Source of the DNA: Myxococcota bacterium
Lineage (GTDB): Bacteria > Myxococcota_A > Polyangia > Nannocystales > Nannocystaceae
Reading direction: 5' to 3'
DNA: 64,000 nt
Assembly (NCBI GenBank): GCA_039028615.1
Contig: JBCCHT010000018.1
Span: 32,001 to 96,000, forward strand
Shown here: positions 19,701 to 39,473 of the stretch, one piece after another
Layout: every line of letters begins with the position of its first letter
Numbering within the stretch: the first letter of the stretch is position 1
Translations under genes and position numbers: made by a program
Notes under the pieces: generated by a model
Told to the model about the DNA's origin: nothing
Databases searched by the model: none
The model's input: only the letters and a program-made list of their open reading frames with translations

Positions 19701-20567
19701 TCACGCGGCCTCCGGTTCACCCCGGTGGACCTCCGCGAGCTGTAGGGGAGTGTCGCATCGGGGACATCGCCCGACGGGCACCTCGGAGCGCTTGGAGGGT
19801 GTGTTCAGGGGTTCGGGGAGGCGACGGGTCGCGGGTTGGAGAGCCAGCACGCCGTGTGCGGTCACATCGGGTCGAAGCCGCCCCGCCAGGACCTGCAGAC
19901 GAACGGAAAGCTCGGGCGCCGACAGCTCGACATGGGTGGTGCCGTCGGCGAAGGGGTGCCGCAGGCGATAGCGGAGCCGGCCGTCCCGGCTGGGGTCGGG
20001 CCCGGGGGTGACCTCCACGGGGTGCACGATGGGCCCCGCCACCACCTGATGCACGGCGCGGGCCCGGGAGCGGTTGTCCCCGACCAGCCGATCGAGCGCC
20101 TCGCGGAGCTCGGCCACCATGCGCTTCGAATCGCGACGCCGTGGCCCGGGCAAGGGGTGAAACACGGGCGCGTCGCCGTCCTGCCGGGTATGGACCCCGT
20201 CGAGGGCGAGGACATGCAGATGAACGGGGGCATGAGGAGCGGGGCCGAAGCGACGCAGGGTGCTGACGGCCCCGCACGCGTGCGGCCCGGGTATGGAGGC
20301 CCGACCGGCGGCGCGCCGGAGCCAGGCGAACACGGCCCCGATGCAGGCCCGGGTCACGGGCGAGCGCAGCCGAGGATCGGCCGAGCGCCGGGTCCCCGCC
20401 GACTCGCCGAGCGAGAACACCCAGTGTCGAACGGGTACCCGAGGCAAGAGGCGAGGGCGGGCCGCTGGGCGGGCGCGGATGCAGACGGGGCAGCGCGGGC
20501 GGGCGCGAGAGGATGACGGAACCATGCTCGAGCAACACAGCCAGATCCATGCCGACGTTGCGCGCAC
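19701..20567 (-). mobile_element. Degenerate IS91-family (HUH) transposase remnant
   Basis: LPRVPVRHWVFSL, CGAV...RRFG..HLHVLALDGV, DGRLRYRLRHPFADGTTHVEL, HGVLA, CPRC; the catalytic-Tyr segment is missing; start uncertain. Confidence 0.65.
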
Positions 20568-26635: not shown

Positions 26636-27454
26636 CTAAAAGGGGCAGGGGATCGGCAGCCGCGGGTTCATGAACGGCAAGACCCCCTCGACGTACGTGA
26701 AGTCTTCGTCGGGGATCACCACCCAGTGGTCGGCGAGCGGAGGTAGTAGCTCACCCTCGTTGTCGGTAACGGGGGCAGCTCCCGCTGCGAGGTAGTGGAT
26801 GTACAGCTCCGCGTTGAAGCCCGGCGGGAACTGGTTGCTGCCGCCTTCGATCGAGTCGCACAGGTTCGAGGTGAGACCGTTGTCGAAGGTCAACCACATC
26901 GTCTCCGGGCGCTCGGGGATTTGCGTGATGGCGACGACCCGAACCGGCGGCCCCGGCGGGTTGTAGCAGTAGTCGTTGCATTCCTCGTAGCAGTAGTCGT
27001 AGTCGCAGTACTCGTAGCAGTACTCTTCGCAGTTCCCGTCGCCGTTCATCTGGCCGACCTCCTGGTACACCGTCCCGTCGAAGCCGTAGTCTTCGTCGGC
27101 GGTGACGGCCGTGCTGAGTCGGAACTGGCGGGGATCGACCGCGTCCGCGGGCGCCAGCGCTTCGGTGAAGGTCAGCTGCAGCGTGAGGTTGTCGGTGAAC
27201 TGCGCGTCGATGAGCGCGGGCGGACCGGGGATGCCGGGCGGGATCGGAGGATCGACCGGGTCGACCGGGTCGTTCGGATCATTGGGGTCGTTCGGATCAT
27301 TGGGGTCGCTCGGATCGCTGGGGTCGCTCGGGTCGTTCGGATCGAACGACCCCGAGTCACCAAAGTCGTACGCGCGATCGACACAAGCGCCGAGGGTCAA
27401 AGACCCGCCCGCGATCGATACGTGGACCCAGCGACCGAATTTCAAACCAAGCAT
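26636..27454 (-). CDS. Hypothetical lipoprotein with DP(N/S/V) repeats and a Cys/Tyr-rich segment
   Basis: Lipobox LGAC; DPNDPSDPS... linker; CEEYCYEYCDYDYCYEECNDYC. Confidence 0.7.
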   Translation of the reverse strand: MLGLKFGRWVHVSIAGGSLTLGACVDRAYDFGDSGSFDPNDPSDPSDPSDPNDPNDPNDPNDPVDPVDPPIPPGIPGPPALIDAQFTDNLTLQLTFTEALAPADAVDPRQFRLSTAVTADEDYGFDGTVYQEVGQMNGDGNCEEYCYEYCDYDYCYEECNDYCYNPPGPPVRVVAITQIPERPETMWLTFDNGLTSNLCDSIEGGSNQFPPGFNAELYIHYLAAGAAPVTDNEGELLPPLADHWVVIPDEDFTYVEGVLPFMNPRLPIPCPF

Positions 27455-27589: not shown

Positions 27590-28405
27590 ATGACGGGGCG
27601 ATCGCGGATCTATCACTGCCCCTCGTGCGGGGGTCCTTGTGCCAATCCGCGGGCGACCGTGTGCGAGTTCTGCGAAGGCCCGCTGTTGCCCATGGGCACG
27701 CCGGACCCGCGGAACTCCATTCGCTGCTCCGCCTGCACCGCGCTCGTCAGTGCCGGCGCCAGCTTCTGCCCCTCATGCGGCGATCCGCTCGCTCAGGCCG
27801 CCAGCACCCAGCAATCCCGCGCCTGCCCGGCCTGCCCCGGTAGCGAAATGGAAGGCTTCCGGTTGCAGCCCACTGCCGCGCACCCGCAGGGCTGGGCCGT
27901 GTTCGGCTGTCGCGGATGTGGAGGCGTGTGGGTCGATCTCGAGACCCTCGACGCCATGCTCGCCTCCGCCGCCAAGCAAGGCAGCGGTGATGGTCGGGCC
28001 ATGTCCGTCAAGCGCCGCGCGCTCTCGCTGAACGGCAAGGTCGTCTACCGCCCCTGCGCGGTCTGCAAGGAGACCATGATCCGCCGCAATTTTGCCCAGA
28101 TCTCCGGGGTCATCGTCGACCAGTGCCGCCTGCACGGCACCTTCTTCGACGCCGGCGAGCTCGAGGACGTCCTCGCCTTCGTGCGCAGCGGCGGAATGGT
28201 CTTGGCCCGTCGTCGCCAGCACGAATCCCTCGATCGCGAGCGACGGCGCGCCGAAGCCCAGCAGGCCGCCAGCCACCGCAGCGTGCTCATGACCGAGGTC
28301 GAGCCCATGAGTGGTCTCCCCGTCGATGCCTTCTCCCACGAGCCCGACCTCGGCCTCGCCTTCGTGCGCTGGGCGGGCCGATGGGTCCGCACGATGTTCA
28401 AATAG
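27590..28405 (+). CDS. Multi zinc-ribbon (DZR/zf-TFIIB-like) protein
   Basis: Eight CxxC/CxxH pairs; GVWVD..L and GTFFDAGELE motifs. Confidence 0.75.
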   Translation: MTGRSRIYHCPSCGGPCANPRATVCEFCEGPLLPMGTPDPRNSIRCSACTALVSAGASFCPSCGDPLAQAASTQQSRACPACPGSEMEGFRLQPTAAHPQGWAVFGCRGCGGVWVDLETLDAMLASAAKQGSGDGRAMSVKRRALSLNGKVVYRPCAVCKETMIRRNFAQISGVIVDQCRLHGTFFDAGELEDVLAFVRSGGMVLARRRQHESLDRERRRAEAQQAASHRSVLMTEVEPMSGLPVDAFSHEPDLGLAFVRWAGRWVRTMFK

Positions 28406-28467
28406 CCCGCCCTTCGTTTTTCTCCCGCCGCGTGATCGTTCACCACGGTCTGGGCACTATCGAGGCG

Positions 28468-28971
28468 ATGCCTGCTCGCCGCTCGTTCCGTCGCCGTGTG
28501 TCTTCGCCCTGGGTTCGGCGGCTAGGGGCCGGATTCCTGCTCGGCATGGTCATCGCCAGCTGCGAGATCAACGACCGCGAGTCCTTCAACGAACGCGCCG
28601 CCGAGCTCGTCTGCGAGATTCACTCCACCTGCGGCGAGGATGTGACCGCCGCCATCCAGATCGACGGCGACGCCCTGACCGAGTCCTGCTACACGACCGT
28701 CTGGGACAACTTCGAGTCCTGTCGCAACAACTGCGGCTTCAACAAGCGCCAGGCCCGTCGCTGCATCCGTCGCCTCGAGAAGATGTCCGACAACTGTGAC
28801 ATCAGCCGCCTCGCCCCCTGCCGTCAGGTCTACGAAGACTGCGAGCCCGGCTTCGATCCCGTGCAGGAATGCGGCCTGTGGAACTGCTCCGTCAGCCCCG
28901 AGGGCAGCGGCTGGGGTGGTGTCATGGCGCTGGGCTTGCTCGTGCTGGGTTGGCGACGACGCCGAGCCTGA
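28468..28971 (+). CDS. Cys-rich exported protein with MYXO-CTERM sorting signal
   Basis: N-terminal VIASC lipobox-like segment; C-terminal CSVSPEGSGWGGVMALGLLVLGWRRRR. Confidence 0.7.
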   Translation: MPARRSFRRRVSSPWVRRLGAGFLLGMVIASCEINDRESFNERAAELVCEIHSTCGEDVTAAIQIDGDALTESCYTTVWDNFESCRNNCGFNKRQARRCIRRLEKMSDNCDISRLAPCRQVYEDCEPGFDPVQECGLWNCSVSPEGSGWGGVMALGLLVLGWRRRRA

Positions 28972-28977
28972 GCGAGC

Positions 28978-30150
28978 ATGGTCCTCGTGACCGCGCAGCC
29001 GAGCGTCATCATCGTCGGAGGAGGGGCGATCGGTCTCGCTTGTGCGTGGTCGCTGGCGCGACGCGGGGCTCGGGTCACCGTGCTCGAGCGCTTCGGCCAC
29101 GTACACGATCGCGGCAGCCATAGCGGCTACACCCGGGTCATTCGCCAGGCCTATCACGAGGGGTCTTCGTACGTGCCGCTGATTCAGCAGGCCGACGCGC
29201 ACTGGTCCGCCATGCAGCAGCGCAGCGGCCGTTCGCTCTTGCACCGCACGGGCCTGCTGCTCTTTGGCCCCGACGGTGGGCGGGACATGCTCGCGGCGAT
29301 CGAGACCTGCCGCGAGTGCGACCTGCCGCATACCCTGCACGACGGGATCGATGCGCGGGAGCGCTGGCCGTTTCGGATGCCCGACGACTGGATCGCCTGC
29401 TTCGATCCGTCCGGCGGCTATCTCTCCGTCACCGCGTGCATGGACGTCATGGCCGAGGAGGCCGTGCAGGCGGGGGCGCGACTGCGGTACGGCGTGCAGG
29501 TCGTCGGGATCGATCGCGGGCCGCGGCGTGGGGTTCGGTTGTCGAGTGGAGAGACGCTCACTGCGGATGCGATCGTGCTGGCGGCGGGGGCTTGGCTGTC
29601 GACGCTCGTGCCCTCGTTGAAGTCGGTGCTCACCGAGCGGCGGCGGATCCTCGCGTGGAGTACTCCGGCGGCCGAGCATCGAGCTGCGCTCGAGGCGATT
29701 CCCGTGTGGGGGGCGTTGCTCGACGACGGGTTCTATTATGGCTTTCCGTACAACGAAGAGGGGATCGTTGGGCTGAAGGTTGCCGTGCATACCTCCGATA
29801 CGCAGCCTTGGCTCGATCGGTCGGTGGAGGCGGATACCGTGGATCGGGGGGCGCATGCGCGGGATTTGGATCCGTTGCGGCGGGTGTTGGATGAGCATCT
29901 GCCGCTAGGGCGGGGGGAGTTTGGGGCTACGCATGCTTGTCTCTATTCTTGTACGCCGACTTGGGATTTCTTGATCGATCGGGATCCGGAGGATGCTCGG
30001 GTGATCTTGGCGGGGGGGTTTTCGGGGCATGGGTTTAAGTTTGCGCCGGCGGTTGGGGATTATGTTGGGGGGTTGTTGTTGGATGAGGGGGAGGTGCGGG
30101 GGGATTTGAGTCTGGCGGCGGCGGTGGGGGCTGGAGGTTCGCCGCGATAG
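28978..30150 (+). CDS. solA: N-methyltryptophan/sarcosine oxidase family FAD oxidoreductase
   Basis: IVGGGAIG, GSHSGYTRVIRQAY, ACLYSCTP, GFSGHGFKFAP. Confidence 0.85.
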   Translation: MVLVTAQPSVIIVGGGAIGLACAWSLARRGARVTVLERFGHVHDRGSHSGYTRVIRQAYHEGSSYVPLIQQADAHWSAMQQRSGRSLLHRTGLLLFGPDGGRDMLAAIETCRECDLPHTLHDGIDARERWPFRMPDDWIACFDPSGGYLSVTACMDVMAEEAVQAGARLRYGVQVVGIDRGPRRGVRLSSGETLTADAIVLAAGAWLSTLVPSLKSVLTERRRILAWSTPAAEHRAALEAIPVWGALLDDGFYYGFPYNEEGIVGLKVAVHTSDTQPWLDRSVEADTVDRGAHARDLDPLRRVLDEHLPLGRGEFGATHACLYSCTPTWDFLIDRDPEDARVILAGGFSGHGFKFAPAVGDYVGGLLLDEGEVRGDLSLAAAVGAGGSPR

Positions 30151-30225
30151 AGCGCGAGGCGGAAGGCCTCGGCGTGGGCATCCGGGCTTTGATGGTGTGC
30201 TTGGATGCGTGAGTCGGAGAAGGCG

Positions 30226-30349
30226 GGCCTAGGGAGTGGACACTTTGGCTTCTGCTCGTGGGCGCAGATTGATGGACCTGGGGAGCGGGCACTTGGGCTC
30301 TTCTCGCGGGTGCAGAATGGGAGACCTGGGGAACGGGCAACTAGGCTTC
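30226..30349 (+). repeat. Degenerate ~48-bp tandem repeats (units at 30226, 30275 and partial 30323; weaker copy near 30166)
   Basis: GGCCTAGGGAGTGGACACTTTGGCTTC / GACCTGGGGAGCGGGCACTTGGGCTC / GACCTGGGGAACGGGCAACTAGGCTTC. Confidence 0.7.
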
Positions 30350-30540
30350 GATGGGGGGAGGGGGGCCCTGTTGACGCCAGACGCCTACCCCGGACGTGCT
30401 CGTCGGGGAATTGGAGAGCGGGGTGCTTGTAGAGGCAGGTAGTCCCCGCCTGCGCGCGACCGGGGGCCCCTTCCGGCTACGCGGGTGCCCCCCGCGGCTT
30501 GAAGCCCGACTTTGATCGGGCTTCTGGTACGCATTGCTGC
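30319..30540 (+). repeat. Left copy of ~220-bp structured inverted repeat
   Basis: Reverse complement of 31819-32039; identical blocks 30344-30406 (63 bp) and 30453-30496 (44 bp); internal hairpin GAAGCCCGA-CTTTGA-TCGGGCTTC. Confidence 0.92.
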
Positions 30541-30652
30541 GTAGGCCTTTTGCTTGCCTTGTGGTGAGGGAATGCTTGCGTCGTTTCGGGGCGCAACCTG
30601 CCGGCTCGCCGGGCGCTCGGCGATCTGATATACCAGCCCCGGAGAAAACGGC

Positions 30653-31645
30653 ATGAGCGGTCTGGTAAAACTGCAACTGAGTGACCTGTTCGATGGAAGT
30701 GCTGATTTGATCGTACTCCCATGTTCGACAAGTGGCACGATCACGCCAATGGTTGCTGTCAGGCTGGTGGAATATAGGATACCGGGCCCACCTCCCATGA
30801 ATCTCGGAGATGTCAGTATGTTGCCATTCGATGGCGCAGAGAATATTGCCCAATATGTTGCGTTTGCGACGTCTGTCCGTGGGATGGGTTCAGATCGACG
30901 GGAGATCCGTCGCATAGGAGAACAACTAGGTCAGTTCACCGTTTCGAACGAATCCATCCGGACGATATCTGCACCCTTGCTTGGAGCCGGGGCGGGGGGG
31001 CTATCCAGTAAGGTCGTCGTTGATGCACTGGCGGAGGGGTTTCGTAGCTGTGCCGAGCGTGATGCAGTCTTGACGATCCACGTGTTGCACCGCAGCGTTT
31101 ACGAGAAGCTCAGTGCGGAGGCCGTGCAACCCGATGCGAACGATCGGTTACGTTCGGCGGTGCCGATTCGTATCTTTCTCAGCTACTCGGGCACGAGCGA
31201 GCGCCACAAGGGCTGGGTGGCTGAGCTCGGGATTTTCTTGAGACAGCAAGGGATCAACGCTCGTCTCGACCAGTGGCACCTGCGTAGAGGTATGGATATG
31301 CCGCAGTGGATGAGCAATGAACTTTCGATGGCCGATCGCGTCGTCATTGTCTCGGATGCGAGGTATACGGAAAGAGCAGATGGCCGCATGGGTGGAGTGG
31401 GTTGGGAAACCATGCTGATTCAAGGCGAGATGTCCGGCCTCTCGCCCGATTCGACCAAGTATTTGGTGATCGTTCGTGAAACAGAAATGGACGCTGGGAC
31501 GCCTAGGTACCTGAAGACCAAGTTCGCGATTCACTGGCCAGAGGGAGCCGACGACAATTCGCTCCGGGATGTGCTCATAACGGAACTCTACGAAGTCGAG
31601 TTGGAGCCGCCACTAGCCTCACGACCTGCGCGCTATCTCGTGTGA
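30653..31645 (+). CDS. Macro-domain + TIR/SEFIR fusion protein, candidate anti-phage/immune protein
   Basis: N-terminal SDLFDGSADLIVLPC and TISAPLLGAGAGGL (macro-like); C-terminal IFLSYS, LDQWHLRRG, ADRVVIV, GGVGWE (TIR/SEFIR); visibly lower GC and atypical codons. Confidence 0.8.
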   Translation: MSGLVKLQLSDLFDGSADLIVLPCSTSGTITPMVAVRLVEYRIPGPPPMNLGDVSMLPFDGAENIAQYVAFATSVRGMGSDRREIRRIGEQLGQFTVSNESIRTISAPLLGAGAGGLSSKVVVDALAEGFRSCAERDAVLTIHVLHRSVYEKLSAEAVQPDANDRLRSAVPIRIFLSYSGTSERHKGWVAELGIFLRQQGINARLDQWHLRRGMDMPQWMSNELSMADRVVIVSDARYTERADGRMGGVGWETMLIQGEMSGLSPDSTKYLVIVRETEMDAGTPRYLKTKFAIHWPEGADDNSLRDVLITELYEVELEPPLASRPARYLV

Positions 31646-31818
31646 CCCGGAGAGTGCTGATCGCGACCGACCCAGCTTTGGCCCCCGTACCAGGTTCTCA
31701 ATAGCGCCATTGGGTCTGGCCACGTCCGTATAGGCTCTCTCCTAGCCGGGAGTAGTCGACGTATCGTTCCTGTCAACGAGTGTTCGTGAGCGTAGCTGAG
31801 CCGCAGGCACCACTCAGT

Positions 31819-32039
31819 GCGGCAGTACGTGCCAGGAGCCCGATCAAAGTCAGGCTTCAAGTCGCGGGGGGCACCCGCGTAGCCGGAAGGGGCCCCCGGT
31901 CGCGCGGAGGAGGTGACTAGATGTTTCTACAAGCAGCGCGCTCTCCAATTCGCCGACGAGCACGTCCGGGGTAGGCGTCTGGCGTCAACAGGGCCCCCCT
32001 CCCCCCATCGAAGCCCAAGTGCCCGCTCCCAGGTCTCCC
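31819..32039 (-). repeat. Right copy of ~220-bp structured inverted repeat (degenerate 48-bp units continue to about 32130)
   Basis: Reverse complement aligns with 30319-30540. Confidence 0.92.
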
Positions 32040-32183
32040 CTTCTTCGCCCACAAGAAGAACTCAGGTTGCGGTCCCTAAGTCGAGCTTCGACGGTGCGTG
32101 CCCCACAGGTCCTCAACGGTTCGCTCGCAAGAAGGAAACCGGGCCTCCGCCGAACGCCTCCCGTTCCGCGATCAGAGCACCCA

Positions 32184-33077
32184 TCACTCATTCACCCGAG
32201 TCGCTCCACCTCGAGCCGCCGCCACCAACATCTTCTCCCGCCGCCTCCGCCTCCAAGCCCGCGCCCCCAAGATCCACCCCGGCATCACCAAAACCGCAAC
32301 CGGCGACACCGCCCCCACAAACCGAATCACCCCCACCAACCCCCCAACCAACCACCCCCCCGCATCCTCGACCGCCCGCCCAATCCGACTCCCAGCCCCC
32401 TCGGCCTCCGTCACGCTCACCCGACTCGGCGCCTCGACGACGAGCCCGATCGTAGCCATCGCCGCCCGCTGCTCCATGCCTCGCACTCGCGCATCGAGTC
32501 GCTCGATCTCCGTCCGCACCAACACCAAGCGCCCCTCGACCTCCAGTACGTCCTCGACGGACTCGGCCGTCTCGAGGATCGCGAGCAAGCGCTCCTCGAG
32601 CCCTCGCTGACTCCGTAGCCGCGCACCGAGATCGGCATGCTGCTCGGTGACGTCTTCTCCCGTGATGGTCTCCTGCAACAGCTCACCATGCTCACGCAGC
32701 TGCGCGAGCACGTGCTGGAAGCGATCGGCGGGCACCCGCACGGAGGTATCGATGCGGTACACGTGCTCGCCCGCACCCTGGGTGTCGCTCGAGGCCACGA
32801 AGCCACCGACCTGCTGGGCGAGCGCGGCGGCGGCTGTGGCTACGGCGCCCGGAGACTCGGCGCGAAGATGGAGGCTGGCGTTGCGAATGACGAGGCGCTC
32901 GTTATCGGGCATGTCCTTGCCTTCGAGCTTTGCCTGTCGATCGTCGGACGCGAAGGTCGCCGCGTCGGCCTTGGTGGCTTCGGCCGTGGGGGTGGCGGCG
33001 ACGGCCTCGTCTTTGGCTTGCTGACCGCATGCCGTGAGCAAGGAGGCGACCAGGGCGATTTTCAGGGGAGCATGCAT
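32184..33077 (-). CDS. DUF4349-family lipoprotein
   Basis: Lipobox LTAC; RLVIRNASL, VRVPADRF, EDVTEQHADL, LEVE..L..VR.EIE; C-terminal TM. Confidence 0.85.
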   Translation of the reverse strand: MHAPLKIALVASLLTACGQQAKDEAVAATPTAEATKADAATFASDDRQAKLEGKDMPDNERLVIRNASLHLRAESPGAVATAAAALAQQVGGFVASSDTQGAGEHVYRIDTSVRVPADRFQHVLAQLREHGELLQETITGEDVTEQHADLGARLRSQRGLEERLLAILETAESVEDVLEVEGRLVLVRTEIERLDARVRGMEQRAAMATIGLVVEAPSRVSVTEAEGAGSRIGRAVEDAGGWLVGGLVGVIRFVGAVSPVAVLVMPGWILGARAWRRRRREKMLVAAARGGATRVNE

Positions 33078-33177
33078 GCTCCCAGCATGGCCAGCACCGC
33101 GCATGGGGAGGTCATGCCCGCATCATCCGACGGTCATGGTTTGGTCATCGAGCCAGGGTCGCTACACTGCGCCTCGA

Positions 33178-33783
33178 ATGTCGCCCAAGGTCCTCATCGT
33201 TCAGGGAACCACCGCCCACAAGAGCCGCCTGACTTCGGTGGCCACCATCGCTCGCGAGGCGGCGGAGGCGACGGGTGGCGACGTGCGGATCTGGGATCTG
33301 GTGGACTCTCCGCTGCCCGTGATGTCGCTGACGGATCCTCGCCAGCGCCGACAAGCGGAGGTGGTGGCGGTGCGCGAGGCGGCGGCAGAGGCCGATGGCT
33401 TCATCCTGATCACGCCCGAGTATCACGGGAACATGAGCGGGGCGCTGAAGAACTGGTTCGACTTCCTGTACCTGGAGCTGGCGGGCAAGTTCGCGGGAGT
33501 GCTGGCGGTGACGGGCGGCGGCAGCGGAGACATGTCGATCATGTCGGTGAAGAACAGCTTCAACTGGTGCCACGGGTTCACGCTGCCCTTTCACGCGGCG
33601 GCTCGACCCGACGACTTCGATGGCAACCAGCTGGTGAACCACCGGGTGATCGAGCGGGTGCGTCGAGTGAGCTCGGACGTGGTTCGCTACGCTCCGCTGA
33701 TTCGCGAGACCTTCGAGGGTGCGCGCACCGATGGCGACGACTGGCGCACGGGCGTGGCGGGGATGCACCCGAAGACGACGTAG
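33178..33783 (+). CDS. NADPH-dependent FMN reductase
   Basis: ADGFILITPEYHGNMSGALKNWFD motif. Confidence 0.88.
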   Translation: MSPKVLIVQGTTAHKSRLTSVATIAREAAEATGGDVRIWDLVDSPLPVMSLTDPRQRRQAEVVAVREAAAEADGFILITPEYHGNMSGALKNWFDFLYLELAGKFAGVLAVTGGGSGDMSIMSVKNSFNWCHGFTLPFHAAARPDDFDGNQLVNHRVIERVRRVSSDVVRYAPLIRETFEGARTDGDDWRTGVAGMHPKTT

Positions 33784-33792
33784 CCCTTGGCG

Positions 33793-34689
33793 CTAGGCCG
33801 GGCGGGCTTCGTCGGCGATGAGCGACGACTGCAAAGCGTCGACCAGCGCTTGCACCCGGGCGCTGCGGTGCTTGGAGTGGGGGTAGACGGCGAAGAGCGG
33901 GAAGGCCCCCTGTACGTAGTCGGGCAGGACGCGCTCGAGGTCGGCGCCGAGCCGCAAGAATCGAGGGGCGACGCGGCCGATGCCCAAGCCCTGCGTGAGG
34001 GCATCGGCCATGGTGCGCGAGGAGTCGACCTCCAGGCGGGCATCGACGGGCACGACGTGCTCTCGACCATCGGCTCCGGTGAGGACCCACGAGGAGACGG
34101 GAGGCTCGCGAACGAAGGAGACGAGGTGGTGATCTCCCAGGTCCTGCGGGGTCTTCGGTTTGCCGTGTCGCTCGAGGTAGTCCTTGCTCGCGACGAGCAC
34201 GGAGCGCACTTCGAGGAGCTTGCGGGCGACCAAGGCACTATCGGGGATGGCACCGCCGACGAAGGCGACGTCGAGTCCGGCGGTAACCGGGTTGATGGAG
34301 CGCTCGTGGGTCCGTAGCAAGATCCGGAGCCCAGGATGCTCGGCCATGAGCGGGCGGGCGGCTCGAAGCACGTCTTGGGCCATGGCACTGATGACGCTGA
34401 CCCGGATGGTGCCGCTGAGCTGCTCTTGCTCGCGAGCCATGAGCTGCTCGGTGTCTTCGACTTCTTCCAAGATCCGTCGCGCACGAACGAGGAACACCCG
34501 CCCGGCTTCGGTGAGGCTCTGGCTTCGCGTGGAGCGATTGAGCAACTTGGTGGCGAGCCGTTCTTCGAGCGCGACGAGGCGGCGGCTGACGGTGTTGGCG
34601 GGCAGGCCCTGCGCTCGCGCGGCCCCGACGATGCTCCGCGACTCCACGATCTGGACGAAGACGCGAAGCTCCTCGAGGCTCTCGAGCAT
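33793..34689 (-). CDS. LysR-family regulator (CrgA-like)
   Basis: HTH ...TVSRRLVALEERL..LLNRSTRSQSLTEAG; VASKDYL...G.P..P.DL. Confidence 0.92.
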   Translation of the reverse strand: MLESLEELRVFVQIVESRSIVGAARAQGLPANTVSRRLVALEERLATKLLNRSTRSQSLTEAGRVFLVRARRILEEVEDTEQLMAREQEQLSGTIRVSVISAMAQDVLRAARPLMAEHPGLRILLRTHERSINPVTAGLDVAFVGGAIPDSALVARKLLEVRSVLVASKDYLERHGKPKTPQDLGDHHLVSFVREPPVSSWVLTGADGREHVVPVDARLEVDSSRTMADALTQGLGIGRVAPRFLRLGADLERVLPDYVQGAFPLFAVYPHSKHRSARVQALVDALQSSLIADEARPA

Positions 34690-34935
34690 GGCGTCGATTA
34701 TCTCGAATTTTGGAGTTCTGATTCTCTAATTGCTCCTCTTTTTGGTTGAGTCGATCGGCGCTAGGTTGATGATGCGGCGCCGCTGGATAGGCGAACGACT
34801 CGCACTCAAATCGCTGAAATCACGAAGGTATGTCTCCTGTCGTCGTCGTCGGGTGGCAGTTCTTCGAGGGCTTTGGCCGGGGTAGCCGAGTTTCGCGTGA
34901 TGACCGCACGGCGCGGAGAATCAGGAGACGATCGA

Positions 34936-35913
34936 ATGTCGAGCAACGAAGGAAAGCGAATCTTCATCACCGGAGCCAATGGCGGGATCGGGGCGGCGAC
35001 GTGTCGGGCGTTGCTGCGGGAAGGGGCAGCGGAGGTGGTGATGGCCTGCCGGTCGGAGGCCAAGGGCGAGGCGGCACGCGAGCAGATCCTGGCGGAGACG
35101 GGCGCGGACCCGGAGCGCCTGACCGTGTACGGCGGCTTCGACATGCTGGATCCGGAGGCCATCCGGGCCGCGGTGGCGAAGCTTCCCAACGCACCCTTCG
35201 ACCGCGTGTTCTTGAGCGCGGGCGGGTGGGTGTACAGCGACGACTATCAGACGATGGTGTCACGCGGCGTGACGGTGGAAAAGACGGTCTTCATGAATGC
35301 GCTGGGCGGTCACGTGACGCTGGCGCAGTTGCTGAACCGAGGGTTGCTGACACCGTCCGCGCGCATCGTGGTGATGGGTGGTGAGGGCGGCCGCGGGGTC
35401 CCGGGCACGCCGCTGGTCAAGCCGGACTTCTCGGACGCGGCGGCATTCATCGCCTATGCGCACGGCGAGGGCAGCAATCGTCCCGCGTACGAGCCCCCGG
35501 TCGCGTTGGGAACGTCGAAGCTCTACGCATCGGTGTGGTCGCAGCGGCTCGCTCGCGAACTCGAGGGGCGCTTCGAGGTGGTGTGCATGAGCCCCGGCCT
35601 CACGGGAGCGACGGCGGGTACGGGCGGATTGCCGAAGTGGAAGGAGTTCGTGTTCCAGAAGATCGCGTTCCCGATCATGGTGTGGACCGGCAAGGCGCAG
35701 TGGCCCGACGCAGCGGGCCAAAAGTGTGCGGATGTGCTGTCGGGCAAGCTCGGCACCCATGGCGACATCTTGGGTGCACCCGAAGGCAAGGCGCTGGGAC
35801 CTCTGGTCGATCAAAAGCCGATGCAGGAGGCGTACACCAACGTCGCGTTCCAGGATGCGCTATGGGACCTGGCCACGCAGGCCGTGGGCCCTCTGGAAGC
35901 CCGCGCAGCGTGA
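34936..35913 (+). CDS. Short-chain dehydrogenase/reductase
   Basis: ITGANGGIG, VMACRS; AGGAG RBS; canonical YxxxK appears as LGTSK. Confidence 0.82.
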   Translation: MSSNEGKRIFITGANGGIGAATCRALLREGAAEVVMACRSEAKGEAAREQILAETGADPERLTVYGGFDMLDPEAIRAAVAKLPNAPFDRVFLSAGGWVYSDDYQTMVSRGVTVEKTVFMNALGGHVTLAQLLNRGLLTPSARIVVMGGEGGRGVPGTPLVKPDFSDAAAFIAYAHGEGSNRPAYEPPVALGTSKLYASVWSQRLARELEGRFEVVCMSPGLTGATAGTGGLPKWKEFVFQKIAFPIMVWTGKAQWPDAAGQKCADVLSGKLGTHGDILGAPEGKALGPLVDQKPMQEAYTNVAFQDALWDLATQAVGPLEARAA

Positions 35914-35935
35914 GGGTCTCGGCGCGGGGCGGCCT

Positions 35936-37255
35936 TCAGTCGACGGGTCGACCGCTGGGCACGGAGGCCGGCGCGATGGTGGTGATGTCCCAGACGACGT
36001 CGGGATCGGAGGTCGACTCGAGGAACTGCACGATGTCGGCGATCTCTTCGCGACTGAGGTTGATCGGCGACTGAGCGATCGGATCGGCGGTCTGCTCGAT
36101 CTCGGCGAAGAGCTCCTCTTGGGAGACGAGCAGCTGCTGGAAGCGCGGCTCGAGGTCTTCACCCGTGTACGTCCGCATCTGGGTGCAGGGGTCGATGTGA
36201 TACTCGACCAGCTCTTCGAGCGAGCGGTGCGTGCCCGCGTGGAAGTAGGGCGCGGTGAAGCTGACGCCACGCAGCGGCGGCGTTCGGAAGGCATAGCGCT
36301 CGCTGGCGAGGCCGGTGTAGCCCCCGCGGCCCCAGTCGAGGCCGGTGCCGACCTGAGGGGTGCACACGTTGTGGAAGTCCTGGTCGGTCATCAGCGTGCC
36401 GGAGTGGCACTCGCCGCAGCGTGCGTCGCCGTAGAACAAGATGCCGCCGCGCTTGGCCGCGTCGACGAGCGCCCCGTCCTCACCTTCGATGAAGCGGTCC
36501 CACTGGCTGTTGGGCAGCGAGAAGGCGCCGACCTGATAGGCGGAGATGGCCAGGGCGGCGTGCTCGAAGCCCAGCTCCGCCCGCGGGACGTCGGGGAAGG
36601 CATCGGCGAACAGCGCGACGTACTCGTCGATCGCGAGCAGCCGGGCCATCACCGCCTCCCAGATCACGGGCAGCGCGTTGTCGTCGTTGTTGGCGTGGCT
36701 GTTGGTGGTGCCGTCGACGTCGACGTCGCCCGGGTAGCCGCGCATGGTGTCGCGGTGGGCGATCTGGGTCATGACCTGAGCGGCGAGCAGGTCGTCGCCG
36801 ATCGCGGTGGGCATGGTGACGCCGTCGGGCAGAGGCCAGGGCTCGCCGAGCTCGATGCGGCCGTCCCAGAACAAGGTCTCCCATCCGTCGGCACCGCGGT
36901 CGAACAGGTCGGGCGCGTTGCGAAGCAGGTAGTTGCCCGAGCCGAGCTGACGGTCGGTGCCGACTCCGACACCACCCGTGCCGATGGACAGCGACAGGCC
37001 GTCACCCGTGCGCGAGGCGGGGTGATGACAGGTGCCGCACGAGACGTCGCGGTTGCCCGACAGCTCTTTGTCGTAAAAGAGCGCCTCGCCGAGTGCCACG
37101 AGGTCTTCGTCGGGTCGGCGACCGTGGTCGAGCGGCTCGATCCTCTGCTCTGCGATCGCGTCGCGCAGCTGATCGGTGAGACTGCCTTGGCAGGCTCCCG
37201 TCAGTCCGATTGTCCCGATGAGCGCGATTTCGCGCAGTCGATGATTCCGCCTCAT
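35936..37255 (-). CDS. Di-heme cytochrome c peroxidase/MauG-family lipoprotein
   Basis: LFYDKELSGNRDVSCGTCH, LFWDGR, CGECH, FRTPPLR, APYFHAG. Confidence 0.9.
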   Translation of the reverse strand: MRRNHRLREIALIGTIGLTGACQGSLTDQLRDAIAEQRIEPLDHGRRPDEDLVALGEALFYDKELSGNRDVSCGTCHHPASRTGDGLSLSIGTGGVGVGTDRQLGSGNYLLRNAPDLFDRGADGWETLFWDGRIELGEPWPLPDGVTMPTAIGDDLLAAQVMTQIAHRDTMRGYPGDVDVDGTTNSHANNDDNALPVIWEAVMARLLAIDEYVALFADAFPDVPRAELGFEHAALAISAYQVGAFSLPNSQWDRFIEGEDGALVDAAKRGGILFYGDARCGECHSGTLMTDQDFHNVCTPQVGTGLDWGRGGYTGLASERYAFRTPPLRGVSFTAPYFHAGTHRSLEELVEYHIDPCTQMRTYTGEDLEPRFQQLLVSQEELFAEIEQTADPIAQSPINLSREEIADIVQFLESTSDPDVVWDITTIAPASVPSGRPVD

Positions 37256-37425
37256 CGCCGTTGTGGGTCCCCTTCGGTCCAGCGGCCGATGATAGCGGGT
37301 TTAATGCAGGGGGCCACGCTTTGTTGCGAGCACGATGGATGAGTTTGCTGCGCGCCCCGGTCGCGCGAGGTCGATATTTCGGCGCTTTCGCACGACGGAT
37401 TCGTGCGCTCACGCGGCGGCCCGTG

Positions 37426-37944
37426 TCAGTAGTCGGTGGAGCGAAGTGTGGCGTCGTAGCGCGAGACGAAGTTTCCTTCGCTGGTCTCGGCCGTGGCGGT
37501 GATCACCACCGGCATGCCGTCGAGGCCGGCGAGGGTCACCGAGCTGTCGAAGCCCACCGGTAGGTTGTCGACCACCAAGACCTCCTCCTCGGTACATTGA
37601 AGCGGCAGGCCTTCGCCGAAAAAACGCACGGTGGCGAGTGTGTCGCCGCTGCCGTCGGACTCGATGGTGACCCATAGTGCATCGAGCTCGGAGGCGGCCA
37701 TGTCTTCGATGGTGACGTCGAACTCGGTGAAGACACCGCCCTGGGGCGGCGGGAACACCTCGACGTCGTCGCCGTCGACGAGCGGGGCCTCACCGTCACG
37801 GTTGGCGAGCGCGAGCACGGGGTCGCCATCGCCCGCGCAGGGCTCGGGCTCGGGTTCGGGGTCGGGGCATGCGCCCACCAGGAGCAACGCGGCGACGAGC
37901 GACAGGCGGGTACGGAGGGCGGCGCTGGAGTTCGACCGTTGCAT
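37426..37944 (-). CDS. Hypothetical lipoprotein
   Basis: ATG 37944 coupled to the upstream stop; lipobox VGAC; PPPQGG motif. Confidence 0.7.
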   Translation of the reverse strand: MQRSNSSAALRTRLSLVAALLLVGACPDPEPEPEPCAGDGDPVLALANRDGEAPLVDGDDVEVFPPPQGGVFTEFDVTIEDMAASELDALWVTIESDGSGDTLATVRFFGEGLPLQCTEEEVLVVDNLPVGFDSSVTLAGLDGMPVVITATAETSEGNFVSRYDATLRSTDY

Positions 37945-39473
37945 CAGCGTGGAGGCCCCGTGACGACGAGGCGCCCCGAGACGAGTGACTGTCGCACGAA
38001 GTCGAGCACGGCGGCATGGACTTGGGCCGGTTCGGTTTTGCACGCGGCGGCGTAGCGCTCGACGACATGGGCGATCGGGCTCGGGGTGCGCAACAGGTCC
38101 ACGAGCACGGCGGCGGCTTCGCTCAAGATCTCGTCGCCGCCGCGCCCGGGCGGCAGCCGCAGCTTGATGCGGGCCTGCTCGCCTTGACCCGCGTGCTCGT
38201 GCACGAGCCACGTGTCCGGGGGCAATCCGACGGTGCGACCGAGCAGGTGCTCGTCGGGCTCGGAGGCGATCACCATCGACAGCCAGGTAGAGTCGATGGC
38301 ATCGGCGTCGACGCGCTCGAGCTTGTCCTGCTCGATGGTCACGGAGAGGCCGGGCGCGCCCGAGACCTTGCCGAGCACGACGAGCGCGTACTCGGTGCGT
38401 TCGATGCCCTGGGCCTGCAGGTGATCGCGGTAGGCCTGGGCATCGCGGGCGTAGGCGTCGTCGAGGGCGGGGTGGTGACTGGCGGCCGAGCCGAGGGCGA
38501 GGATGTTGGGTGAGCTGCCGCGCGCGACGAAGAGCAGCTGGGCGATCTCGCTGCTGCCGTGCGCACCCTGGACGCGCTGCCACAGAGGAGACTCGGGTCG
38601 CGTGGCGCTTTCGAAGATCAGCCGGGCCTCGCCCGCGGGGGCCAGGATGCCGGGGAGCTCGCCGATGAGCCGCATCGCGACCTCGTCCCCCATCGCTCCG
38701 CCGTGCAGGTAGGTCGCGGTCTTCACTTCGGGCGGCGCGACGACGAAGGGGGGCTGCGAGACGACCAGGTCGAACTGGCGATCCTTCACGGGCACGGTGA
38801 GGTCACCCGTGTGCAGCTCGATGGGCAGCTCGTTGAGCGCGGCGTTGAAGCGGCTCCACGCGGCGGCGCGCGGGAGGACGTCGACGCCGACGGCTTCCTT
38901 GGCCCCGCGCGAGGCGGCGATGAGCGCCAGCGTGCCCGCGCCGCAGCCGACGTCGAGTACCCGCCCGGGGTTTTCGGGAATCGCTCGCGCCAACGCGATG
39001 GTGGTGGGACCGGGGCCCATCACCGGATCTTCGTCGCGACGGTGCAGCTCGTCCGAGCCGATCCACAGTCCGGCGATCGGACACAGGCGCATGTTGCCTC
39101 GCCACCCGCCGTCGACCTGCCGCAGCATGCCGTACTCGCGAAGGCGACCGATCAACGCCTCGGGGAAGACCATCGCCAGCATCGAGCCGTCGACGTCGTC
39201 GCCGTACAGAAACAAGCGGGCGAGCAAGGCGGCGGGTCGTTCGAGTCGACGCAGCGACCACTGCACCATCGGGTTGCGTACCGCGGGCAGCATGTGCGGG
39301 GCGACGCGCTCGCAGTCGCGGTAGAAGTCGTCGTCGAAGGACGAACCCTTGAGCACGGTTCGAAGGCCCATGAGCAGGGCCTTGTCGTCTGCGGCGAGAT
39401 CGGGTCGGGCGGTGGCCACCGACATGCGCGCAAGGGTAGCGCGACGGACGGATCGCTCCTCGTCGTCGAGCAC
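37944..39473 (-). CDS. HemK/MTS-like class I SAM methyltransferase with C-terminal winged-helix-like domain
   Basis: VLDVGCGAG, GVDV, GDL, FDLVVSQPPF. Confidence 0.85.
   Translation of the reverse strand: MLDDEERSVRRATLARMSVATARPDLAADDKALLMGLRTVLKGSSFDDDFYRDCERVAPHMLPAVRNPMVQWSLRRLERPAALLARLFLYGDDVDGSMLAMVFPEALIGRLREYGMLRQVDGGWRGNMRLCPIAGLWIGSDELHRRDEDPVMGPGPTTIALARAIPENPGRVLDVGCGAGTLALIAASRGAKEAVGVDVLPRAAAWSRFNAALNELPIELHTGDLTVPVKDRQFDLVVSQPPFVVAPPEVKTATYLHGGAMGDEVAMRLIGELPGILAPAGEARLIFESATRPESPLWQRVQGAHGSSEIAQLLFVARGSSPNILALGSAASHHPALDDAYARDAQAYRDHLQAQGIERTEYALVVLGKVSGAPGLSVTIEQDKLERVDADAIDSTWLSMVIASEPDEHLLGRTVGLPPDTWLVHEHAGQGEQARIKLRLPPGRGGDEILSEAAAVLVDLLRTPSPIAHVVERYAAACKTEPAQVHAAVLDFVRQSLVSGRLVVTGPPR

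What the first reader, a model, noticed from the sequence alone, without database searches (positions are those of the whole stretch)
29500..32500. Mirror-image synonymous C-depletion converging on the inverted-repeat cassette (possible localized mutagenesis footprint)
Seen: in solA (+) 10 of 20 codons at 28981-29040 end in C, but only 5 of the last 109 sense codons do (29821-30147) and none of the last 47; C is replaced by T or G while motifs such as GFSGHGFKFAP are kept. In the convergent DUF4349 gene (-) only 1 of the last 61 sense codons ends in C. So the top strand loses C on the left and the bottom strand loses C on the right, most strongly next to the repeats. Several differences between the two repeat copies are also C/G or C/T. 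Inference: this is the polarity expected if the site is repeatedly cut and 5'->3' resection leaves ssDNA whose cytosines are damaged. It would then be a site-directed breakage and cargo-exchange hotspot that mutagenises its neighbours. I do not know a described system that matches this.
Basis: partly seen in the sequence, partly recalled or inferred. Interest (0 to 1): 0.85.

Follow-up and report, generated by a model that had tools for sequence, protein, structure and literature searches.

The report
One-strand mutation halo around transposon hairpins
In this large-genomed marine bacterium, dozens of leftover hairpin-shaped ends of a jumping gene each sit in a 1-2 kb zone where one particular DNA strand has steadily lost C and A and gained G and T, rewriting the silent letters of neighbouring genes; the mirror image first noticed is simply two such hairpins facing each other.

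Summary
The counts are exact and far beyond chance. None of 2665 convergent gene ends away from repeats is as depleted, and orthologues without the element are normal. The bias is genome-wide: 54 of 60 outer copies of this ~135-nt hairpin (family A, 99 hits) have G+T-rich 5' flanks. It is a shift from C and A to G and T at nearly constant GC. The double-strand-break model is not supported: unpaired copies are biased on the same strand on both sides (5' 17 of 17, 3' 16 of 17). The mirror comes from two inverted copies. The hairpin is 81-89% identical to the subterminal module of an IS1182-family element; a related intact element exists in another genus. This genome's copies have no recognisable terminal repeats and no intact cognate transposase. 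Copies close to the intact element show no halo. Best reading: the hairpin strand is repeatedly left single-stranded and deaminated. The trigger (replication or repair gap versus R-loop) is unresolved. I found no description in eight paper searches; GRINS skews are closest.

The parts
28978..30150 (+). solA-like FAD oxidoreductase gene; its 3' ~600 bp is recoded on the top strand (third-position G+T 0.93 in the last 109 codons)
   Evidence: NF008425 302 bits against cut-off 257; codon counts; 8 orthologues keep 13-22 C-ending codons in the last 40 against 0 here
30245..30340 (+). Two tandem 48-nt units (77% alike) just 5' of the left hairpin; local duplications are enriched at these loci
   Evidence: D7; tandem arrays at 24 of 70 repeat loci against a mean of 6.1 at random intergenic sites (TRF did not call this particular pair)
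30356..30490 (+). Hairpin family A, left copy (core of the 30329-30540 arm): imperfect ~135-nt palindrome, orphan subterminal module of an IS1182-family element
   Evidence: nhmmer; covariation; 83-89% identity to IS copies in L228 and L229; no terminal inverted repeat found upstream
30653..31645 (+). Passenger gene with a C-terminal SEFIR/TIR domain; low GC (56%, GC3 0.62), no halo gradient; probably a recent horizontal arrival and a candidate anti-phage gene
   Evidence: Pfam SEFIR and TIR_2; PADLOC bSEFIR E 7e-43 over the C-terminal half only; full-length relatives at 52-66% identity, named ones from other phyla; no full-length match in 250 other genomes of the class
31870..32005 (-). Hairpin family A, right copy (core of the 31819-32030 arm), inverted relative to the left copy
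   Evidence: 81-87% identity to IS copies
32184..33104 (-). DUF4349 gene; its 3' ~500 bp is recoded on the bottom strand (third-position G+T 0.95 in the last 61 codons)
   Evidence: PF14257; counts; orthologues in G001 and G017 keep 17 and 12 C-ending codons in the last 40 against 1 here

Best explanation
The repeats are orphaned subterminal hairpins of an IS1182-family insertion sequence, which carries one such hairpin inside each end, pointing inward (shown for L228 and L239). Copies in this genome have lost recognisable terminal repeats and transposase but keep the fold (shown by covariation). The strand that carries the hairpin has accumulated C->T and A->G changes and a net C->G shift for about 0.7 kb on its 5' side and 1.5-2 kb on its 3' side (shown). 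Inferred: the hairpin folds whenever that strand is transiently unpaired, and alone or with a bound protein it delays re-annealing or gap filling. That strand therefore stays single-stranded on both sides and is deaminated (C->U, A->hypoxanthine). GC-biased fixation turns most of the loss at four-fold sites into G, perhaps helped by translesion synthesis by DnaE2. Two inverted hairpins give the mirror image. The effect accumulates with residence time.
For: Same-strand bias on both sides of unpaired copies and in G004 (5' 8 of 8, 3' 7 of 8). It decays with distance. On the 3' side it does not depend on gene direction: third-position C on the hairpin strand at 200-400 bp is 0.16 in antisense genes and 0.17 in sense genes. 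Spectrum: four-fold sites C 0.50->0.29, G 0.39->0.59, T 0.06->0.09, A 0.05->0.03; NNY C 0.83->0.59; NNR A 0.165->0.084. Reciprocal test: 10 of 10 repeat-flanking genes of G004 and G001 are more G+T-rich than their G000 orthologues. A T.G pair is invariant in 24 of 24 copies and is a standard pair only on the biased strand. IS anatomy; a 200-bp miniature element with both terminal repeats lies in G001. In genus g17, 17 copies at least 90% identical to the IS copy show no halo (means -0.05 and -0.02), whereas 26 diverged copies lean positive on the 3' side (21 of 26). A toy equilibrium model with only C->T and A->G raised gives a 1.7-2.2-fold G/C shift against 2.6 observed. dnaE2 and four uracil-glycosylase-family genes are present.
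Against: No single-stranded DNA, lesion or mutation rate was measured. Predicted stability hardly differs between strands (A: -31.5 against -30.3 kcal/mol, biased strand more stable in 56 of 86; B 9 of 19; C 7 of 13), so plain thermodynamics does not explain the polarity. The 5' bias is about twice as strong when the upstream gene is transcribed towards the hairpin (+0.26, 57 of 64, against +0.13, 6 of 7), which points to a role for transcription. G002 and G001 copies show little 3' bias (4 of 10 and 1 of 3), and the g17 effect is weak. Private changes inside hairpin copies show no C->T excess (25 against 24 G->A). Six of 60 A copies and 3 of 9 C copies have no positive 5' skew. 27 of 63 extreme codon segments are not near families A-C. 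Seven IS1182 copies in G063 lack this hairpin, so transposition does not need it and its job is unknown.
Confidence: 0.45

Rival explanations
1. Transcription-coupled version: transcripts entering the hairpin in the sense direction pause or read through untranslated and form R-loops. These displace the non-template strand, which is the hairpin strand, and expose it to deamination.
For: 68 of 79 hairpins with a gene within 400 bp on their 5' side are co-oriented with it. The 5' bias is stronger behind co-oriented genes. The 3' reach is longer than the 5' reach. The invariant T.G pair suits RNA as well as DNA. C->T on the non-transcribed strand is established (recalled).
Against: The bias persists behind divergent genes (6 of 7). 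It is as strong in co-directional, translated 3' genes as in convergent ones. Nearly all tRNA genes, though highly transcribed, have no halo. No sigma-70-like promoter in 30000-32300.
Confidence: 0.25
2. A trans-acting nuclease or transposase (IS1182, HUH/RAYT-like or Ssn-like) nicks or cuts at the hairpin in an orientation-specific way. Two-way gap expansion, or one-ended break repair with a migrating D-loop, then exposes the same strand on both sides.
For: Conserved bulges and wobble pairs look like a protein recognition site. Tandem duplications are enriched at the loci. Both Y1-transposase loci of this genome also have converging skews beside their own end motifs.
Against: No cognate enzyme gene is linked to families A-C. 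IS1182 is present only as sub-cut-off fragments; the 3 GIY-YIG genes are not flanked by hairpins; DUF559 and IS91 zinc-finger searches were blank (the IS91 control genomes were also blank). G001 and G004 have the hairpin but no match to the Y1 protein or family. Copies with intact terminal repeats, the natural substrate, have no halo. Most Y1 loci in other genomes show no skew.
Confidence: 0.14
3. One reading: repeated double-strand breaks at the element with 5'->3' resection to both sides (also what SbcCD cleavage of a palindrome followed by RecBCD repair would give; recalled).
For: The outer flanks of inverted pairs have exactly this polarity. Cut-and-paste elements leave donor breaks (recalled).
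Against: Unpaired copies are not mirror-symmetric (3' flank has the same sign in 16 of 17). The interiors of long pairs show + then -, the reverse of resection from each copy.
Confidence: 0.07
4. Selection on the RNA (for example C-poor, G-rich transcripts that avoid Rho termination), or insertion preference for sites that were already skewed.
For: Co-orientation with upstream genes. Rho prefers C-rich RNA (recalled).
Against: The bias lies on the template strand of convergent downstream genes. It includes A->G and CTG->TTG and goes with lower protein conservation (solA 3' part 0.57 against 0.69 among congeners). Orthologous empty sites and IS-like copies are unskewed.
Confidence: 0.09

Closest known systems
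IS1182-family insertion sequences and their miniature derivatives (NCBIfam NF033551)
   Same: The hairpin is 81-89% identical to modules lying just inside both ends of IS1182 elements with terminal inverted repeats and a CTAG duplication (L228; one end in L229; a related module in L239). TAG stop codons are enriched upstream of this genome's copies (32 of 68 against 30%).
   Different: The window's copies have no recognisable terminal repeats, no CTAG duplication and no transposase, and many form tandem arrays. I found no paper on such end hairpins or on mutation beside them. CTAG targeting by the family is recalled.
[quoted passage not shown] 2021, PMC8256042; abstract and sections 5 and 11 read)
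   Same: Correlated G-over-C and T-over-A skews, strongest at third codon positions, that recode working proteins in GC-rich bacteria; mechanism unknown there.
   Different: GRINS are duplicated coding regions over 500 bp spread by gene conversion. Here the skewed DNA is unique host sequence, and the skew is a gradient anchored on a non-coding hairpin whose orientation sets the sign.
Ssn nucleases and NTS/SRM repeats (Chenal et al. 2025, PMC11893778; abstract and sections 7 and 12 read); REP/BIME with RAYT (recalled)
   Same: Directional hairpin repeats, intergenic, clustered, read on one DNA strand; the paper cites lower identity of genes next to dRS3 repeats.
   Different: The hairpins here are much longer (about 135 nt against 20-50 nt). 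No GIY-YIG or RAYT gene is flanked by them. The sections I read describe no strand-polar composition halo.
Leading/lagging-strand GC skew and strand-asymmetric mutation beside meiotic breaks
   Same: The same chemistry (C->T, A->G on exposed single strands) and direction (G>C, T>A).
   Different: Local (1-2 kb), several times stronger, set by element orientation and not detectably by regional strand bias (rho 0.10, p 0.40, 79 sites; weak test), and one-strand rather than mirror-symmetric.

Membership tests
IS1182 family (element in the window) | IS1182 DDE transposase gene | tested here: not met
   The interior encodes a SEFIR/TIR protein. The genome holds only sub-cut-off fragments at C20:209.7-210.5 kb and no match to the L228 transposase. 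The assembly is fragmented and many hairpins lie at contig ends, so a collapsed copy is not excluded.
IS1182 family (element in the window) | Terminal inverted repeats with a CTAG target duplication | tested here: not met
   No convincing match in the 150 bp upstream of any A, B or C copy tested (three weak 5-mismatch hits at other loci); one terminal-repeat-like site genome-wide at C80, without this hairpin.
IS1182 family (origin of the hairpin) | Homologous hairpin lies inside the terminal repeats of intact IS1182 elements | tested here: met
   L228 both ends, L229 one end; L239 in another genus with a related hairpin; miniature element L333; remnant L238.
IS1182 family (origin of the hairpin) | Element moves by the IS1182 transposase | not testable with these tools
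   No experiment possible. G063 has 7 equal-scoring IS1182 copies without this hairpin.
GRINS | Absolute GC and TA skews above 0.15, correlated | tested here: met
   29501-30500: GC skew +0.24 and +0.35, AT skew -0.28 and -0.25; 32001-32500: -0.43 and +0.19.
GRINS | Skewed region over 500 bp duplicated at over 80% identity | tested here: not met
   A DNA search with 28400-33800 finds other G000 matches only for the hairpin arms and the FMN-reductase gene; the skewed solA and DUF4349 ends are single-copy.
Ssn/SRM | Small single-domain GIY-YIG gene flanked by the motif | tested here: not met
   3 GIY-YIG hits, none with an A, B or C hairpin in its locus.
REP/RAYT (REPIN) | Y1 transposase gene flanked by the same repeats | tested here: not met
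   Two Y1 genes, below the NF047646 cut-off (34 against 80 bits for the one tested), with their own end motifs; no A, B or C hit lies at those positions.
Integron attC array | RYYYAAC / GTTRRRY core sites and an integron integrase | tested here: inconclusive
   By eye on the alignments only some copies have an AAC at the left foot and none has the matching GTT; the integrase was not searched. Consensus recalled.
Known structured RNA families | Rfam match at gathering score | tested here: not met
   Two chance-level hits only in 29500-32600.

The most novel reading that the evidence does not exclude
The hairpin is a portable cis-acting mutator. A factor that recognises its conserved bulged core keeps one chosen strand single-stranded over 2-3 kb, so the orphan transposon ends keep spreading and locally speed up the evolution of neighbouring genes. 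The same process may be the unexplained source of GRINS-type skews in GC-rich bacteria.
Probability: 0.25. Interest if true: 0.9.

Novelty: new variant of a known kind. Interest (0 to 1): 0.72.

Why it matters
It shows a local, orientation-dependent mutational field in a bacterial chromosome, strong enough to strip nearly all C from silent sites of ordinary genes and to go with lower protein conservation. It ties that field to a defined ~135-nt element of known ancestry. This makes an open question testable: the GRINS paper leaves the origin of intense local G+T skews unexplained, and here a short sequence can be inserted in either orientation and the predicted strand scored. It also warns that local skew flips need not mark origins, termini or break sites, and it points to an undescribed structured module inside some IS1182 ends.

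Tried and rejected
General 3' or convergent-gene codon bias: rejected. Ancestral property of the genes: rejected. Assembly artefact: rejected. Mirror symmetry around each copy: rejected. RAYT/Y1, IS91/ISCR, GIY-YIG/Ssn and DUF559 partners: no link found; searches had blank controls, so they do not show absence. Viral contigs were blank for the motif and for the transposase. Of 7 metagenome hits, 6 were real copies and L233 was chance. Families B and C were not found next to an IS1182 gene, so their origin is open. The mutation spectrum from paralogous hairpin copies was inconclusive. No RNA holder was listed. Read laying gave contigs only and no population variants; the 30464-31855 joint has 39 letters on its short side and probably comes from another repeat copy. 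The replication-direction test was blank but weak. PMC7198004 (passages) gave no support for spontaneous C:G->G:C by ImuC; PMC3901139 (passages) reports ImuB/ImuC-dependent G:C->C:G after UV in Caulobacter. The one Y-family hit in G000 is not next to dnaE2, so an imuABC cassette was not shown. PMC3971601 (passages) had nothing on IS1182 hairpins. The genes used for codon statistics come from my own simple gene caller, not a standard annotation.
Full report
1. The observation. Genome codon use predicts 59.7, 25.0 and 28.1. The window is C18:32001-96000 of a 12.27-Mb, 94-contig genome; I take it to be a marine myxobacterium (inference from genome size, gene content, the run label and one named transposase relative). 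With my own gene calls, 0 of 2665 convergent gene ends and 0 of 7228 gene ends away from repeats have 3 or fewer C-ending codons among the last 61, against 5 of 164 near repeats. Eight solA orthologues keep 13-22 C-ending codons in the last 40 and two DUF4349 orthologues keep 17 and 12; none of those loci has the hairpin, and in G001 the two genes lie about 140 bp apart. Contigs of run X1, which may be the source of this DNA, agree with the window.

2. A genome-wide effect of a hairpin family. The core of the inverted repeat (30356-30490 on +, 31870-32005 on -) has 99 profile hits in 48 loci. It folds into a long imperfect hairpin: 93.5% of cells pair against 81.0% in shuffles, and 18 of 32 pairs change on both sides (related sequences inflate such scores). 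One T.G pair is invariant in 24 of 24 copies and is a standard pair only on the strand I call the hairpin strand. Two further hairpin families, B (20 hits) and C (15 hits), share part of the architecture. The 5' flank is G+T-rich on the hairpin strand in 54 of 60 outer A copies (32 above +0.14, about two background standard deviations), 20 of 20 B copies and 6 of 9 C copies. In an unbiased scan, 36 of 63 extreme codon segments lie within 2.5 kb of these families and 3 more at the two Y1-transposase loci (counted by hand). Third-position C in sense genes is 0.21 within 200 bp and back to 0.53 at 800-1000 bp.

3. What changes. Within 500 bp, four-fold sites go from C 0.50, G 0.39, T 0.06, A 0.05 to 0.29, 0.59, 0.09, 0.03. 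NNY codons drop from 0.83 to 0.59 C, NNR codons from 0.165 to 0.084 A, and TTG becomes about three times as common relative to CTG as elsewhere. So C and A give way to G and T at almost constant GC, with no strong sequence context. The reverse comparison agrees: 10 of 10 hairpin-flanking genes of G004 and G001 are more G+T-rich than their G000 orthologues, with four-fold C->G 241 against G->C 28, two-fold C->T 53 against T->C 17, and A->G 23 against G->A 6 (these are net differences at saturation). A toy equilibrium model with assumed rates gives a 1.7-2.2-fold G/C shift from raised C->T and A->G alone, and 2.4-2.8-fold if C->G is also doubled; 2.6 is observed. Direct C->G is therefore possible but not required. 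Protein identity also falls: the solA 3' part is 0.57 to congeners against 0.69 among them, the 5' part 0.65 against 0.71.

4. The polarity is one-strand, not mirror. Seventeen clusters have no opposite-strand copy within 6 kb and at least 1.5 kb of contig on both sides (two of them face each other at 6.6 kb). All 17 are biased on the 5' side and 16 on the 3' side, on the same strand. The 3' bias reaches 1.5-2 kb, does not reverse further out, and is as strong in genes transcribed towards the hairpin as in co-directional ones. Long pairs such as C54:73.7-79.0 kb are + in their left half and - in their right half. G004 shows the same (5' 8 of 8, 3' 7 of 8); G002 (8 of 11, 4 of 10) and G001 (3 of 3, 1 of 3) are weak, and metagenome copies are 5 of 6 on the 5' side. 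The mirror in the window is the sum of two inverted one-strand halos.

5. Where the hairpin comes from. A strict pattern scan of metagenomes gave 7 stretches, 6 of them real copies. In L228 two inward-facing copies lie just inside terminal inverted repeats bounded by CTAG, around an IS1182 transposase; L229 shows one such end (382 and 378 bits against a cut-off of 270). The window's cores are 81-89% identical to these. A transposase about 63% identical in another genus (L239) has the same layout with a related hairpin. G001 has a 200-bp miniature element with both terminal repeats and a collapsed hairpin and a transposase remnant beside a decayed hairpin. G000 copies have no convincing terminal repeat and the genome has no intact IS1182 by two searches. 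They sit mostly just behind co-oriented genes (68 sense, 11 antisense, 10 with no gene within 400 bp), with TAG stops in 32 of 68 against 30% genome-wide, as expected of a CTAG-targeting ancestor (recalled). By BLAST, family A was found in 4 of 5 congeners and 0 of 67 other genomes of the family. Seven IS1182 copies in G063 lack the hairpin.

6. Time. In genus g17, 17 copies at least 90% identical to the IS copy (7 with a terminal repeat) have mean flank skews of -0.05 and -0.02; 26 copies under 85% identical (none with a terminal repeat) have +0.01 and +0.06, with 21 of 26 positive on the 3' side. One copy with short flanks was left out. Identity is only a proxy for age, kin are not independent and the effect is small, but it fits accumulation after insertion rather than a choice of skewed targets. 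The passenger gene in the window has GC3 0.62 and no gradient, and its listed relatives are 52-66% identical, the named ones from other phyla. It arrived recently, by an unknown route.

7. Mechanism. Shown: strand, reach, spectrum, ancestry. Inferred: prolonged single-strandedness of the hairpin strand, with deamination of C and A. I favour a DNA-level gap held open by the folded or protein-bound hairpin (0.45) over an R-loop (0.25), an orientation-specific nick (0.14), selection or site choice (0.09) and symmetric breaks (0.07). Against the favoured reading: folding energy barely differs between strands, co-oriented upstream genes double the 5' effect, and changes inside the hairpins show no C->T excess. 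For DNA-level processing: tandem arrays lie at 24 of 70 loci against a mean of 6.1 and a maximum of 13 in 200 random draws. dnaE2 and four uracil-glycosylase-family genes are present; ImuB/ImuC-dependent G:C->C:G changes are reported after UV in Caulobacter (PMC3901139, passages).

8. What is known. The element is IS1182-derived but fails membership as it stands. The skew resembles GRINS (PMC8256042, sections 5 and 11) but is not duplicated coding DNA. Ssn/SRM (PMC11893778, sections 7 and 12) and REP/RAYT tests were not met. Eight full-text searches found no description of a strand-polar halo beside bacterial IS hairpins; the library lacks most subscription papers. Earlier notes of this scan describe similar halos in other taxa; they are unchecked, and several describe a mirror around each repeat, which is not what this genome shows.

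9. Verdict. Real, systematic and apparently undescribed as a phenomenon. Interest 0.72.

Noticed in passing
G000 C18:17400-20100 (about 12 kb left of the window) and L230: A cluster of four parS-like sites (motif recalled) beside rsmG shows converging skew (+0.34 left, -0.32 right) with no hairpin. A relative (L230) has an inverted A pair at this same place with a strong mirror skew, so the G000 skew may be the scar of a lost pair.
   Followed up: partly
G000 C13:40464-41396 and C8:231440-232330: Two Y1 (RAYT-like) transposase genes with short inverted end motifs, each with converging skew in the neighbouring genes (trpS 3' end at C13). Most Y1 loci in other genomes lack it.
   Followed up: partly
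window 19704-20567 (-): Single degraded IS91/ISCR-like transposase (NF052416 E 8e-15, far below cut-off; no other copy in the genome), without a skew halo.
   Followed up: partly
window 33000-39000: Mild top-strand G+T excess over several genes regardless of their direction (GC skew +0.07 to +0.17), opposite in sign to the right hairpin's halo and unexplained.
   Followed up: no
G000 C11:155630-155942: tRNA-Ser followed by a short hairpin element; skew +0.32 upstream and +0.34 downstream on the same strand, unlike nearly all other tRNA genes.
   Followed up: no
G000 hairpin families B (e.g. C1:32411) and C (e.g. C18:219356): Two more hairpin families with the same halo; B shares the conserved core with A. 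In G004 a probable IS256-type transposase (recognised from recall) has landed inside a B copy (L338, L342).
   Followed up: partly
L225 and L226 (G002): Two IS200/IS605 tnpA loci in low-GC islands show converging skew; gene direction was not controlled.
   Followed up: no
L217, L068, L076, L085 (G002): A copies in G002 often lie next to YhgA/Rpn-like or DUF4351 genes and fragments, and show little halo.
   Followed up: no
G000 C54:79159-79674: A uracil-DNA-glycosylase-family gene directly flanks an A array and is itself strongly C-depleted at third positions.
   Followed up: no
window 27240-27356 and 26963-27045: In-frame 9-nt and 12-15-nt tandem repeats in an unannotated gene (26636-27454, -) encode Pro/Asp/Asn-rich and Cys/Tyr-rich tracts.
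   Followed up: no
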